A stretch of DNA of 46,601 nucleotides from Alphaproteobacteria bacterium (GTDB lineage Bacteria > Pseudomonadota > Alphaproteobacteria > Rs-D84): the NCBI GenBank assembly GCA_046882025.1, contig JBKSNB010000086.1, forward strand, positions 1 to 46,601, given 5' to 3'. Shown one piece after another: positions 25,463 through 27,250 of the stretch; the stretch's first letter is position 1; every line of letters starts with the position of its first letter. A program made the position numbers and the translations under genes. A model generated the notes under the pieces. It was not told the origin of the DNA and searched no databases. It saw nothing but the letters and a program-made list of their open reading frames with translations.

Positions 25463-27250
25463 ATGAGGAAATTTATACCAATCTTTATTGTGTTATTTAT
25501 ACCTGTTGCCAATGCGGCAACAGATACGTGTTCCCAGCATAACACGCAACAGAAATGTCAAAATAACAGTCCCGAATGCCAATGGACTGGTTCCATTTGC
25601 CGCCAACAATGCTACACTTTTACAGAAGAAAGCGAATGTCCATCCGCTTATTGTGAATGGACCGGCGAAAGTTGCACCAGCATAACATGCGCGACTCGCA
25701 ACCCAAGCAAATGCATCATCGAGACCAATTATTGTTATTTGAACGGCAGCGAATGCAAAAAAGCCGATCCTAACAATTGTAATAACGCTGATGAAACACA
25801 GTGTAAAAGCAACCCATATTGCTATTGGATGGCGAATATGCCCAATGGCAACCAATGTCTGTCTTGCATTAAGGGGCAAAGGCGCCCCTGGCTTGGCTAT
25901 CCATACCAATTATGTATTACAGAAAAATCCCCTACCAATTGGAATAGCGGATGCGATGTTAATCCACCATTATATGCAAATTCTGTAACCTGGTCGGATT
26001 CAAACGATGCATGTTCTTGGATTGCAACATGTCCCCCTGGAACACATTATGTTGCGGATGACAACACATCACCAAAATGCGTCGTCTGCACAGAAACCGG
26101 GACATACAATGACGGCAAAGATTCGGCAGGCAAAATATTGTTATATGACAAAAATTCCAAAACGCAACAGTGCAAAATGTGCTCCGGTAATCCATCCGCA
26201 GATAGAACAGATTGCGAAGACGAAGCCGAAAACCCAACTGAGTGTCCAGCGGGACAATACGTCAATGGCAACGAATGTACACAATGCGAAGAAGATACAT
26301 TTATACCGCTACCGAACAAAGAAGATATTGAGAGCTATCGTCACTATGAAACACAATGTTTCGATTGCCCGCAAAACTCTCATACACGGCAAGAAGAAGA
26401 AGAACCCAAACGCCATACATATTGCGAGTGTAACACAGGATATATAAACTACGCATTGCCCAAACGAAACGATCCCAAATATATAAATGATGCAACAAGT
26501 CACAATTGTACTAAGTTGACTTATATTCCAAGCTCAATTGTTGAGGATTTTGACGAGTTGGTTTACTTATTTGACGGTGGGTATTATTGGGACGGCAGCG
26601 ACATATTTGTTGATGGTCAAGATGGTATTAAACTATGTGAACCAGGCTATTACTGCGAACCAATACCAGAAGGAACGAATCCTATTAAACCAAAACAAAA
26701 CATACATAGTTGCCCACAATATAACACCAGTAACCCCGGTGCGAAGACGCTACAAGATTGTTACGCAACATGCGAAAAGGGAATGTTTAAAACAACCGAA
26801 TACTCTGACGAATATAGTGATGATATACAGACATGTGAAGCATGTCCTGAGGGCTATACTAGTAACGAGGGTGCAGCAAAGCTAACCGATTGTTATAAAA
26901 TCTGCACACCAGGACAGTATGCCACCACCGAACAAATTGGCGGGGATGTACTGAGGTCTTGCGAAAATTGTCCCAACGGCTATACTAGTAACGAGGGTGC
27001 AAAAGGCAAAAGTGATTGTTATCAAATCTGCGAAGCGGGACAATATGCTACCCCCAAACAAATTGGCGGGGATGTACTGAGGTCTTGTGAAAATTGTCCC
27101 AAACACTTTACCAGTGACGAGGGCGGTGCAGCATCAATAACCAAATGTTATATGAAAACCGACACACAATTCTGTGACAAAGGCAACAAGTGCACAACCT
27201 TAGCGGACATTTTTGGCAACGATGTCAGAATTTACTACAAAGAACAATAA
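25463..27250 (+). CDS. secreted cysteine-rich repeat protein (CXXC / furin-like modules, 595 aa)
   Basis: Signal peptide MRKFIPIFIVLFIPVANA. N-terminal C..C.W.G..C modules. C-terminal tandem modules CE.CP.GYTSNEGA...DCY.IC..GQYAT..QIGGDVLRSCENCP. Confidence 0.75.
   Translation: MRKFIPIFIVLFIPVANAATDTCSQHNTQQKCQNNSPECQWTGSICRQQCYTFTEESECPSAYCEWTGESCTSITCATRNPSKCIIETNYCYLNGSECKKADPNNCNNADETQCKSNPYCYWMANMPNGNQCLSCIKGQRRPWLGYPYQLCITEKSPTNWNSGCDVNPPLYANSVTWSDSNDACSWIATCPPGTHYVADDNTSPKCVVCTETGTYNDGKDSAGKILLYDKNSKTQQCKMCSGNPSADRTDCEDEAENPTECPAGQYVNGNECTQCEEDTFIPLPNKEDIESYRHYETQCFDCPQNSHTRQEEEEPKRHTYCECNTGYINYALPKRNDPKYINDATSHNCTKLTYIPSSIVEDFDELVYLFDGGYYWDGSDIFVDGQDGIKLCEPGYYCEPIPEGTNPIKPKQNIHSCPQYNTSNPGAKTLQDCYATCEKGMFKTTEYSDEYSDDIQTCEACPEGYTSNEGAAKLTDCYKICTPGQYATTEQIGGDVLRSCENCPNGYTSNEGAKGKSDCYQICEAGQYATPKQIGGDVLRSCENCPKHFTSDEGGAASITKCYMKTDTQFCDKGNKCTTLADIFGNDVRIYYKEQ
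26843..27150 (+). repeat. 126-bp (42-codon) in-frame tandem repeat, ~2.4 copies, near-identical
   Basis: Units start at 26843, 26969 and 27095 (TGTCC.. GGCTATACTAGTAACGAGGGTGCA ... CAAATTGGCGGGGATGTACTGAGGTCTTG.GAAAAT). More diverged units lie upstream from ~26714. Confidence 0.85.

What the first reader, a model, noticed from the sequence alone, without database searches (positions are those of the whole stretch)
25463..27250. Eukaryote-like cysteine-rich repeat protein (CXXC/furin-like modules)
This 595-aa secreted protein is almost entirely Cys-framed modules. The N-terminal modules follow C....(E/K)C.W.G..C (CQNNSPECQWTGSIC, CPSAYCEWTGESC, CKSNPYCYW). The central modules contain C-x-x-C pairs (CPAGQYVNGNECTQCEEDTF, CFDCPQNSH). 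The C-terminal modules follow CE.CP.GYTSNEGA...DCY.IC..GQY. The CP.G.Y...(C..C) pattern recalls furin-like, GCC2/GCC3 and Giardia-VSP-type repeats, which are mainly eukaryotic surface-protein modules. In a putatively host-associated bacterium this could be mimicry or an adhesin.
Basis: partly seen in the sequence, partly recalled or inferred. Interest (0 to 1): 0.65.

Follow-up and report, generated by a model that had tools for sequence, protein, structure and literature searches.

The report
Hypervariable cysteine-rich secreted protein, gut Enterousia
This gene encodes a secreted, disulfide-rich rod-like protein built partly from TNF-receptor-like (GCC2_GCC3) modules in a tiny-genome gut bacterium (Candidatus Enterousia), and it differs almost completely between near-identical strains, as contact or adhesion proteins under diversifying pressure do, with no sign that it was borrowed from a eukaryote.

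Summary
ORF 25463-27250 (+) encodes 595 aa with a signal peptide and 52 Cys (8.7%).

The C-terminal 42-aa repeats are genuine Ephrin_rec_like (formerly GCC2_GCC3) modules. The isolated segment scores 31.6 bits (E = 1.5e-7) against a Pfam cutoff of 23.1, and 0 of 10 shuffled or reversed controls hit. An AlphaFold model of this region (pLDDT 83.5) matches almost only TNF-receptor ectodomains. The central CXXC modules are degenerate versions of the same type. The four N-terminal 4-Cys modules are a separate, unclassified repeat.

The "eukaryote-like mimicry" reading is not supported. The nearest relatives of the repeats are bacterial, and GC content is native.

The host is Candidatus Enterousia (order Rs-D84, Alphaproteobacteria), which has a genome under 1 Mb and lives in animal guts. 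The gene sits in a conserved slot abutting pth. That slot holds family members of 187-595 aa in seven relatives' contigs and is empty in three. A strain with 93-96% identical flanking DNA has about 40% identity across the gene body. Only the 5' end and a conserved C-terminal cap are shared.

Best reading: a Sec-exported, disulfide-locked, rapidly diversifying extracellular or surface contact protein. It is a new variant of a known kind and of moderate interest.

The parts
25463..27250 (+). Complete ORF of 595 aa, a secreted Cys-rich modular protein (P0001)
25422..25450 (+). Promoter-like site (TTGATA-17-TAACAT) in the 50-bp gap after the upstream gene. This is a consensus match only and such sites are not enriched over shuffles.
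25463..25516 (+). Signal peptide, residues 1-18 (MRKFIPIFIVLFIPVANA, AXA cleavage motif). There is no lipobox.
   Evidence: Sequence read directly. The MRKFIF... N-terminus is conserved in P0003, P0007 and the L006 301-aa protein.
25529..25858 (+). Four tandem N-terminal 4-Cys modules, C-x7-8-C-x4-6-C-x-[W/L]-x4-10-C (residues 23-132). This repeat type is unclassified.
   Evidence: 4 observed vs 0.35 in shuffles; also in P0003 and L001 ORF 10001-11581; no Pfam or PDB match
26012..26452 (+). Central CXXC modules (residues 184-330: C.W..CPPGT.Y...C..C..GTY / CPAGQY..C..C..DTF / C..CPQNS...C.C..GY). They are degenerate GCC2_GCC3/TNFR-like modules.
   Evidence: Orthologous central segments hit Ephrin_rec_like (L006 24.3 bits, P0003 17.7 bits) but the window's own segment does not. 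Alignment A6. hhalign against the C-terminal repeats gives only 26% probability.
26453..26635 (+). Cys-poor linker (residues 331-391) with the conserved GGYYWDGSD motif, leading into K.CEPGYYC
26636..27148 (+). Four Ephrin_rec_like (GCC2_GCC3) units: residues 392-433 (degenerate), 437-477, 481-519, 523-562
   Evidence: AF2 model pLDDT 83.5 with paired long beta-hairpins per unit; TNFR-fold matches
26834..27085 (+). 126-bp tandem DNA duplication (2 copies, 80% identical; TRF reports 2.2 copies at 84%) that encodes units 2-3. dN/dS is about 0.70 between the copies.
27086..27247 (+). Terminal module plus family-defining C-terminal cap (residues 542-595: CxxCPxHFTSD...CYM...TQFCD..N.C.TLADIFG...I.YKEQ)
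   Evidence: Conserved in 10 family members (alignment A8). High model confidence.
25478..27132 (+). Hypervariable body of the gene relative to strain L009. It shows about 25-59% nt identity in 100-nt windows (most 31-48%), while the flanks (25381-25477 and 27133-29376) are 96% and 93% identical. Identity rises stepwise to 94% or more from about 27199.
22827..25412 (+). Upstream co-directional partner gene (861 aa, secreted, 4.9% Cys, no Pfam family). It is present at this position in five of six Enterousia relatives' contigs that reach upstream of the slot (not L010, where RadC lies upstream; L009 too short).
27251..27769 (-). Peptidyl-tRNA hydrolase gene, convergent. Its stop codon directly abuts the target's stop codon. 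It marks the conserved edge of the variable slot.
30674..31528 (-). DsbA-like thiol:disulfide oxidoreductase, the likely oxidant for the Cys-rich exported proteins. It is conserved in synteny whether or not the target is present.

Best explanation
The gene encodes a Sec-exported, disulfide-locked, elongated modular protein of Candidatus Enterousia. This is a gut alphaproteobacterium of order Rs-D84 with a genome under 1 Mb, thought to depend on a partner organism.

Shown here. The protein has a signal peptide and 52 Cys. Its architecture is four N-terminal 4-Cys modules of an unclassified type, then degenerate CXXC modules, then a Cys-poor linker, then four Ephrin_rec_like/GCC2_GCC3 units with a TNFR-like fold, then a conserved C-terminal cap. 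It belongs to a lineage-specific family that occupies a fixed chromosomal slot abutting pth. Members range from 187 to 595 aa through gain and loss of modules. Between strains whose flanking DNA is 93-96% identical, the gene body is effectively unalignable, and only the first few codons and the C-terminal cap are shared.

Inferred. After export, the periplasmic DsbA encoded 3.4 kb away forms up to 26 disulfides. These give a rigid, protease-resistant rod suited to the gut. The conserved C-terminal cap is the constant part, used for anchoring, for secretion, or for recognition by a cell-envelope partner, possibly the co-directional 861-aa protein. The variable N-terminal and central modules are the exposed part that contacts a partner or host surface. 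That part is diversified by whole-cassette allele replacement through recombination in the conserved ends, plus internal module duplication. The pressure could come from host immunity, phage or partner specificity.
For: Organism: PolA is 84% identical to that of Ca. Enterousia. The genus biology comes from PMC12306168.

Export and Cys content.

Module identity: Ephrin_rec_like scores 31.6 bits, E = 1.5e-7, on the C-terminal segment. All 10 shuffled or reversed controls are negative. The repeats match bacterial proteins that pass Pfam's cutoff.

Fold: the AF2 model has pLDDT 83.5. The top Foldseek hits in PDB are TNFR ectodomains (CD40, RANK, DR6, OPG, TNFR1/2, 4-1BB) at probability about 1.0 and E down to 9e-5. 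The viral library likewise returns poxvirus and iridovirus TNFR homologues and no phage tail fibres.

Family and slot: positional homologues of 544, 407, 391, 301, 199 and 187 aa all lie next to pth. The slot is empty in L005, L007 and L008.

Hypervariability: against L009, Pth is 97.7% and PolA 95.1% identical at the protein level, while the target is 27.6% identical by BLASTP. In DNA, the flanks are 93-96% identical and the gene body about 40%.

Other points: the C-terminal cap is conserved in 10 members. A recent 126-bp duplication shows dN/dS of about 0.7. DsbA is in conserved synteny. GC content is native.
Against: There is no direct evidence on localisation. A Sec signal in a diderm only takes the protein to the periplasm. 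No sorting motif, transmembrane anchor, lipobox or dedicated secretion system was identified.

The full-length protein is below Pfam's cutoff (15.4 bits). The central modules of this protein do not hit on their own, and hhalign of the central region against the repeats is weak (26% probability).

Foldseek TM-scores are low (0.2-0.34), as expected for flexible rods, so the fold match rests on local 3Di similarity.

The hypervariability comparison rests on one near-identical strain (L009). dN/dS comes from only 42 codons. No expression data exist. The slot is empty in some relatives, so the gene is dispensable.
Confidence: 0.55

Rival explanations
1. Eukaryote-derived mimic. The gene, or its repeats, was acquired from a host or gut protist and acts as a decoy or mimic of eukaryotic GCC2_GCC3/TNFR-type surface receptors.
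For: Ephrin_rec_like/TNFR-type modules are best known from eukaryotes and their viruses (fold hits). Two of the 12 sequence relatives look eukaryotic, with an Ig I-set domain and a single transmembrane segment (P0006, P0009). The organism lives in animal guts.
Against: The closest relatives are Enterousia or alphaproteobacterial proteins and bacterial pilin-like proteins with strong Ephrin_rec_like scores (up to 292 bits). GC content equals that of the surroundings. The family has a conserved chromosomal slot across species whose PolA identity to the window's falls to 74%, which argues for long residence in the lineage. The unit has 4 Cys per 42 aa and no TNFR_c6 sequence match. No TNF-like ligand context is present.
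Confidence: 0.07
2. Periplasmic or cell-envelope structural protein. In this reading it is a disulfide-rich envelope component, comparable in role to the chlamydial cysteine-rich envelope proteins, or a redox or metal buffer, and not an exposed contact protein.
For: A Sec signal alone predicts a periplasmic location. No surface-sorting signal was found. The window encodes many other Cys-rich exported proteins and a Pom-type (Protochlamydia-like) porin. CXXC pairs can bind metals.
Against: Extreme allelic divergence between near-identical strains, together with presence/absence and length polymorphism, is unusual for a housekeeping envelope component. The TNFR-like fold with an even Cys count fits disulfides and not metal sites.
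Confidence: 0.15
3. Secreted effector, toxin or competition factor. In this reading it is a polymorphic secreted protein that acts on competing bacteria or on host cells, and it diversifies in an arms race.
For: The body is hypervariable and the ends are conserved, as in polymorphic toxin or bacteriocin loci. The protein is secreted and disulfide-stabilised.
Against: No toxin, enzymatic or immunity domain was detected by Pfam or NCBIfam. No adjacent small immunity-like gene exists, because the stop codon abuts pth. In polymorphic toxins the variable part is usually the C-terminal tip, whereas here the C-terminus is the conserved part.
Confidence: 0.1
4. Decaying or non-functional ORF in a variable region. 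In this reading the Cys pattern is a relic and the divergence reflects relaxed constraint.
For: The slot is empty in some relatives. dN/dS between the duplicated units is about 0.7.
Against: The reading frame of 595 codons is intact. The Cys framework, the cap and the signal peptide are conserved across members as divergent as 27-40% identity. The model of the C-terminal region is confident. Enterousia genomes show no pseudogene accumulation (PMC12306168).
Confidence: 0.03

Closest known systems
Pfam PF07699 Ephrin_rec_like (formerly GCC2_GCC3) repeat proteins
   Same: The C-terminal units carry the C-x2-G-x-Y...C-x2-C-P-x-G-[YF]-T-S-x2-G-A-x5-C motif. As an isolated segment they pass the Pfam cutoff. 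The predicted fold is a stack of TNFR-like disulfide-bonded hairpins.
   Different: The full-length protein is below the cutoff. Only about 170 of 595 residues are clear members. The unit is 42 aa with 4 Cys and a long beta-hairpin insert. The context is a bacterial signal-peptide protein with a lineage-specific N-terminal repeat and C-terminal cap.
Bacterial pilin-like giant proteins with N_methyl + Flg_new + Ephrin_rec_like repeats (P0004, P0010, P0011, P0012)
   Same: These are the best non-family sequence matches to the 42-aa units (E = 9e-17 to 5e-4). They show that the module serves as an extracellular building block in bacteria.
   Different: They have a prepilin-type N-terminal methylation motif and Listeria-Bacteroides repeats. 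They are much longer (717-3792 aa) and lack both the N-terminal 4-Cys modules and the C-terminal cap. Their organisms were not named by the sources.
TNF-receptor superfamily ectodomains (CD40, RANK, DR6, OPG, TNFR1/2, 4-1BB) and viral TNFR homologues
   Same: They are the top structural matches of the modelled C-terminal region in both libraries. They share the elongated rod of small disulfide-rich modules.
   Different: There is no significant sequence match: the best hit of the PDB profile search is OPG at E = 0.1, and there is no TNFR_c6 Pfam hit. Global TM-scores are 0.2-0.34. The Cys count per module differs. Nothing points to a TNF-like trimeric ligand.
Giardia variant-specific surface proteins (VSPs) and other CXXC-rich variable surface coats
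   Same: Both are Cys-rich, CXXC-containing, secreted or surface modular proteins of a gut organism, with extreme sequence variability and a conserved C-terminal end. This is a resemblance of concept and motif only.
   Different: No VSP profile hit at E <= 10. The protein has no C-terminal transmembrane helix or CRGKA tail. It is a single chromosomal slot with allelic diversity between strains, not a large within-genome switching repertoire.
Other Enterousia Cys-rich secreted proteins (window 32307-33698; L005 436-aa and 553-aa; L012 403-aa)
   Same: They belong to the same genus, carry signal peptides, are 9-11% Cys, have Ephrin_rec_like or EGF-like modules, and end in a related ...TS..GA....CY[LM]... 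module. They also sit in a variable slot, after recO.
   Different: Their internal modules differ (C..CP.NATC.GG..F.C..GY.K type). L005 436/553 and window 32307 carry a cap variant (CYLESG.YY..GTF...C); L012 403-aa has the target's cap and sits after polA. They lack the N-terminal 4-Cys repeat.

Membership tests
Pfam PF07699 Ephrin_rec_like (GCC2_GCC3) | HMM score at or above the curated gathering cutoff (23.1 bits) | tested here: met
   The isolated C-terminal 163 aa (residues 433-595) scores 31.6 bits, E = 1.5e-7, in 3 stretches. The whole protein scores only 15.4 bits, E = 0.016, so the criterion is met at segment level only. Controls: 0 of 9 shuffles (5 full, 4 with Cys positions fixed) and the reversed sequence give no hit.
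Pfam PF07699 Ephrin_rec_like (GCC2_GCC3) | Repeated C..G.Y ... C..CP.G.T[ST]..GA.....C motif | tested here: met
   There are three clean units and one degenerate unit at residues 392-562. The units align with those of proteins that pass the Pfam cutoff (P0004, P0012, P0010).
Pfam PF07699 Ephrin_rec_like (GCC2_GCC3) | The same module type across the rest of the protein (central CXXC region) | tested here: inconclusive
   The window's central segment has no hit. Orthologous central segments score 24.3 bits (L006) and 17.7 bits (P0003). hhalign of the central region against the repeats gives 26% probability.
TNFR-like cysteine-rich domain fold. Ephrin_rec_like, NCD3G and TNFR_c6 are grouped in one Pfam clan according to my memory; this was not checked here. 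| Elongated stack of small disulfide-bonded beta-hairpin modules | tested here: met
   The AF2 model of residues 385-595 has pLDDT 83.5. Foldseek against PDB returns, with few exceptions, TNFR ectodomains among the 50 matches listed (probability about 1, E down to 9e-5). The viral library returns TNFR homologues. TM-scores are low (0.2-0.34). Disulfide geometry could not be inspected.
TNF receptor superfamily proper (Pfam TNFR_c6) | Sequence match to the TNFR CRD profile | tested here: not met
   There is no TNFR_c6 hit at E <= 10. The PDB profile search gives OPG at E = 0.1 only.
Furin-like / growth-factor-receptor Cys-rich repeats | Match to furin-like or GF_recep_IV profiles | tested here: not met
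   No such family is listed at E <= 10 for the whole protein or for any of four segments.
Giardia VSP | VSP profile match, a C-terminal transmembrane helix and a conserved CRGKA tail | tested here: not met
   There is no VSP hit. The C-terminus is the hydrophilic sequence ...RIYYKEQ, with no hydrophobic helix.
EGF-like domains | Six-Cys EGF profile match | tested here: not met
   The only hit is a non-significant EGF1_RECK match (E = 0.34) in the C-terminal segment.
Enterousia pth-adjacent Cys-rich family (defined here) | Signal peptide, a terminal CxxCP..T[ST]..G module, the cap C[YH]M...T[QK]FCD..G.C...[IL].Y, and a position convergent with and next to pth | tested here: met
   Alignments A1-A3 and A8. 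The position is confirmed in L006, L009, L010, L011, L012 and L013.

The most novel reading that the evidence does not exclude
Enterousia, a partner-dependent gut alphaproteobacterium with a genome under 1 Mb, may use this locus as a polymorphic recognition or attachment cassette. A rigid TNFR/GCC2_GCC3-like disulfide rod would have a variable body that is swapped wholesale between strains by recombination in its conserved 5' end and C-terminal cap. That would be a bacterial counterpart of the variant Cys-rich surface coats of gut protists. It would determine which host, protist or bacterial partner, or which phage or antibody, a strain engages. The N-terminal 4-Cys repeat would then be a new binding module.
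Probability: 0.25. Interest if true: 0.7.

Novelty: new variant of a known kind. Interest (0 to 1): 0.45.

Why it matters
Candidatus Enterousia and the order Rs-D84 are uncultured, widespread in livestock and human guts, and have genomes under 1 Mb. They lack the TCA cycle, respiration and standard uptake transporters, so how they contact and exploit a partner is the central open question (PMC12306168). A 0.9-Mb genome that keeps several large Cys-rich exported proteins, one of them in a slot that differs almost completely between strains with 93-96% identical flanks, points to the molecules most likely to mediate that contact or to be under immune or phage pressure.

The locus gives a concrete, testable handle. 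It could serve as a strain marker, a candidate adhesin or a target for antibodies. It also documents that GCC2_GCC3/TNFR-like modules, usually discussed as eukaryotic, are an established extracellular building block in bacteria. Finally, it adds an undescribed 4-Cys repeat and a conserved C-terminal cap.

Tried and rejected
- The word-seeded homology search with the protein and with the family alignment returned only the query itself and one 171-aa fragment. The exhaustive HMMER search was needed to find relatives.
- Single-sequence AlphaFold of the full protein was useless, with pLDDT 33.
For that reason only the C-terminal 211 aa were modelled with an alignment. The N-terminal and central parts remain unmodelled.
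- The PDB sequence search with the protein found nothing. The repeat profile found only OPG at E = 0.1. The N-terminal module profile found only a chance A20 zinc-finger match.
- NCBIfam gave no hit.
- hhalign of the N-terminal modules against the C-terminal repeats showed no relation.
- The genome-collection and metagenome scans gave only one Enterousia locus and three distant freshwater loci.
- I looked for signals of phase variation or an invertible element, such as inverted repeats or simple-sequence tracts. Nothing convincing turned up.
- Promoter and terminator scans were not enriched over shuffles.
- No remnant of the gene is present in the empty slot of L007.
- The small lipoproteins that flank the family in L011-L013 have no homologue in the window.
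- A foreign-DNA signature was rejected: GC is 0.41 here and in the flanks.
- A phage tail-fibre origin was rejected (probability <= 0.05).
- Literature searches for bacterial GCC2_GCC3 or Ephrin_rec_like proteins found nothing relevant.
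Full report
**1. The observation**

The ORF at 25463..27250 (+) is real. It starts at ATG and encodes 595 aa. It has 52 cysteines (8.7%), while the housekeeping ORFs of the window have 0-2%. The N-terminus MRKFIPIFIVLFIPVANA|ATDT has the n-, h- and c-regions of a Sec signal peptide and an AXA cleavage motif. There is no lipobox, and there are no Cys in the signal, so the mature protein has an even 52 Cys.

The patterns are not chance. The N-terminal 4-Cys pattern occurs 4 times in tandem against 0.35 expected (0 of 2000 shuffles reach 4). 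CxxC occurs 8 times against 3.5 +/- 1.6. A 126-bp tandem DNA repeat (26834-27085; TRF reports 26852-27123, 2.2 copies, 84%) underlies the C-terminal units. The only correction concerns "almost entirely Cys-framed": residues 350-391 are Cys-free.

**2. What the modules are**

The whole protein gives only sub-threshold Pfam hits. Ephrin_rec_like PF07699, the family formerly called GCC2_GCC3, scores 15.4 bits against a cutoff of 23.1 (E = 0.016). TNFR_ELAPOR1_6th gives E = 0.031. NCBIfam and PDB sequence searches find nothing.

Scanned alone, the C-terminal 163 aa score 31.6 bits (E = 1.5e-7) for Ephrin_rec_like, above the curated cutoff. As a control I scanned five full shuffles, four shuffles with the Cys positions fixed, and the reversed sequence. 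None gave any Ephrin_rec_like hit. The match therefore does not come from composition or Cys spacing.

An HMM of the three clean units finds four units in the protein: 392-433 (degenerate), 437-477, 481-519 and 523-562.

The central CXXC region (184-330) does not hit on its own. The homologous central segments of two orthologues do: L006 scores 24.3 bits and P0003 scores 17.7 bits. Profile-profile comparison of the central region with the C-terminal units is weak, at 26% probability. I regard the central modules as degenerate relatives of the same type, but this is not proven.

The four N-terminal modules (23-132) follow C-x7-8-C-x4-6-C-x-[W/L]-x4-10-C. They have no Pfam hit, no PDB relative and no relation to the C-terminal units. 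They recur only in family members (P0003, L001 ORF 10001-11581). This is an unclassified repeat.

**3. Structure**

Single-sequence AlphaFold failed, with pLDDT 33. With a 13-row alignment, residues 385-595 gave a confident model with mean pLDDT 83.5. Each 42-aa unit forms a long beta-hairpin plus a loop region, and the C-terminal tail forms a small hairpin-helix cap.

Foldseek against PDB returned TNF-receptor-superfamily ectodomains almost exclusively: CD40, RANK, DR6, OPG, TNFR1/2, 4-1BB, OX40 and HVEM. Probability was about 1 and E reached 9e-5. One exception among the top 13 was a Chlamydomonas mastigoneme protein. The viral library returned poxvirus, iridovirus and herpesvirus TNFR homologues, while phage tail fibres scored probability <= 0.05.

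Global TM-scores are low (0.2-0.34), which is usual for flexible rods. The conclusion is "TNFR-like cysteine-rich rod", not membership of the TNFR family. There is no TNFR_c6 hit, and the repeat profile matches OPG only at E = 0.1.

**4. Relatives and organism**

The word-seeded search found only the query. The exhaustive HMMER search found 12 relatives.

- P0003 (544 aa) is a full-length homologue.
- P0002 (199 aa) and P0007 (229 aa) share the C-terminal part.
- The remaining hits match only the 42-aa units.
  - Four are pilin-like proteins: P0004, P0011 and P0012 carry N_methyl + Flg_new, while P0005 is assigned by sequence and repeat resemblance only. P0004, P0011 and P0012 pass the Pfam cutoff.
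  - P0010 (3792 aa) scores 292 bits.
  - P0008 and P0013 resemble each other. The source names P0013 as coming from an alphaproteobacterial MAG; P0008 has no source name.
  - P0006 and P0009 look eukaryotic, with an Ig domain and a transmembrane segment.

The module is therefore well established in bacteria.

The window's PolA is 84% identical to that of Candidatus Enterousia. Published descriptions place this genus in the uncultured order Rs-D84 of Alphaproteobacteria. It lives in farm-animal guts, has genomes of about 0.75-1.0 Mb, lacks the TCA cycle, respiration and standard uptake transporters, and is proposed to depend on a partner organism (PMC12306168). GC content across the gene (0.41) equals that of the flanks.

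**5. Genomic context and variability**

Synteny is conserved across Enterousia contigs in this order: EF-Ts, S2, S8 subtilase, DUF3078, a 203-aa ORF, a Pom-type porin, [slot], pth (convergent), polA, dsbA, recO, [second slot].

The slot always begins with a member of an 861-aa family. After that its content varies:

| Contig | PolA identity to window | Target-family gene |
|---|---|---|
| window | - | 595 aa |
| L009 | 95% | 544 aa |
| L006 | 86% | 301 aa |
| L012 | 75% | 407 aa |
| L013 | 74% | 391 aa |
| L010 | not available | 199 aa |
| L011 | 76% | 187 aa |
| L005 | 84% | none |
| L007 / L008 | 77% | none |

In the window, L006, L009 and L010 the target's stop codon directly abuts the pth stop codon.

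All members share a terminal module plus cap of the form CxxCP..T[ST]..G...S[IT]..C[YH]M...T[QK]FCD..G.C...[IL].Y (alignment A8).

The key result comes from L009. Its Pth and PolA are 97.7% and 95.1% identical to the window's at the protein level, yet the target orthologue is only 27.6% identical by BLASTP. At the DNA level the two contigs are 95.9% identical over 25381-25477 and 93.4% identical from 27133 onward. Identity reaches 94% or more from about 27199. Across 25478-27132 it is about 25-59% per 100-nt window, mostly 31-48%, which is essentially unalignable.

The gene body therefore behaves as a hypervariable cassette between conserved ends. By comparison, the neighbouring 861-aa gene is 59-65% identical and DsbA 72-92% identical in L005-L007.

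Inside the gene, the two copies of the 126-bp duplication differ at 25 nucleotides, with dN/dS of about 0.70. The Cys/Gly/Tyr framework is kept. This estimate rests on few codons.

**6. Mechanism**

Shown: the export signal, the Cys-rich modular architecture, the Ephrin_rec_like units with a TNFR-like fold, the lineage-specific family, the fixed slot, the length polymorphism, and the extreme allelic divergence with conserved ends.

Inferred:
- Oxidative folding by the periplasmic DsbA encoded at 30674-31528, giving a rigid, protease-resistant rod.
- The conserved cap as the constant interface, used for anchoring, secretion or partner binding. The partner could be the co-directional 861-aa protein, which lies 50 bp upstream. 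A promoter-like site in that gap is only a consensus match.
- The variable N-terminal and central modules as the exposed, ligand-contacting part, diversified by recombinational allele replacement and module duplication under pressure from host immunity, phage or partner specificity.

I put 0.55 on this package. The structural and family part is much more certain than the location and function part.

Rivals:
- A periplasmic or envelope structural protein (0.15).
- A polymorphic secreted effector (0.10).
- A eukaryote-derived mimic (0.07).
- A decaying ORF (0.03).

**7. Comparison with known families, and novelty**

The protein works like, and in its C-terminal third is a member of, the Ephrin_rec_like/GCC2_GCC3 repeat class. 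It resembles TNFR ectodomains in fold only. It is not a furin-like, EGF or Giardia-VSP protein, because the defining profiles, and for VSP the transmembrane/CRGKA tail, were tested and not met.

The combination is not described in any library searched here, nor in the paper collection searched. That combination is an unclassified N-terminal 4-Cys repeat, degenerate CXXC modules, GCC2_GCC3 units, a lineage-specific cap, a fixed pth-adjacent slot, and cassette-like hypervariability.

I rate it a new variant of a known kind, with interest 0.45. It is not a surprise in principle, since variable Cys-rich secreted proteins are common in host-associated organisms. It is a concrete lead into how an uncultured, genome-reduced gut lineage contacts its surroundings.

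Noticed in passing
window 22827-25412 (+), 38397-40865 (-), 40888-43056 (-), 43522-45801 (+): There are four paralogues of a large secreted protein family (722-861 aa, 4.5-5% Cys). Each has a signal peptide, a T/R/S/N-rich low-complexity stretch and a conserved Cys-containing domain. No Pfam, NCBIfam or PDB match was found. One copy always opens the variable slot upstream of the target, and it is 59-65% identical in relatives whose PolA is 77-86% identical.
   Followed up: partly
window 32307-33698 (+): This 463-aa secreted protein has 11.2% Cys and repeated C..CP.NATC.GG..F.C..GY.K modules, with a weak EGF_MSP1_1 hit at 24-26 bits. It sits in a second variable slot after recO. L005 has two such genes there (436 aa, and 553 aa scoring 51 bits for Ephrin_rec_like). 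L007 and L011 have none. It ends in a related but distinct cap (..TS.AGATS...CYLESG.YY..GTF...QC).
   Followed up: partly
window 27248-27253; also L006, L009, L010: The target and pth are convergent with directly abutting stop codons and no intergenic base. There is no room for a terminator between them. The arrangement is conserved in three other contigs.
   Followed up: partly
L007 and L009 (both from ENA sample ERZ27247118): Two Enterousia genotypes occur in one sample. One has the slot empty after the 733-aa gene, and the other carries the 544-aa allele and is about 94% identical in DNA to the window. This suggests coexisting strains that differ at this locus.
   Followed up: no
L011 4161-4610; L012 2522-3496 and 10215-11182; L013 3051-3518: Small paralogous lipoproteins (145-170 aa, MKLKQTLPYKLKR...LFTAC lipobox) lie next to the Cys-rich genes in the more distant Enterousia relatives. 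No homologue was found in the window or in L001-L008.
   Followed up: partly
window 21018-22658 (-): An outer-membrane protein matches the Pom family (Protochlamydia outer membrane protein, PF17251, E = 2e-10) in an alphaproteobacterium. It is conserved in synteny in Enterousia.
   Followed up: no
L001 2019-2603; P0008, P0013: Other alphaproteobacterial proteins with Ephrin_rec_like-type units end in a different conserved C-terminal domain (CGR[IK][LF]H[IV]GD..[IL]YLR[ST].K.T..[LA][NH][VF]...DG...F.[GA]N[ML]S...). Its function is unknown.
   Followed up: no
window 4905-5477 (-) and 45853-46599 (+, runs off the window): There are two more small or partial secreted Cys-containing ORFs (190 aa with 6.3% Cys, and a partial ORF with a signal peptide after the 759-aa paralogue). 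Exported Cys-rich proteins are unusually dense in this 46-kb stretch of a genome under 1 Mb.
   Followed up: no
window 5911-9528 (-): This is a pyruvate:ferredoxin oxidoreductase (1205-aa ORF as listed, TTG start probably too far upstream). It is consistent with the anaerobic fermentative lifestyle reported for Enterousia.
   Followed up: no
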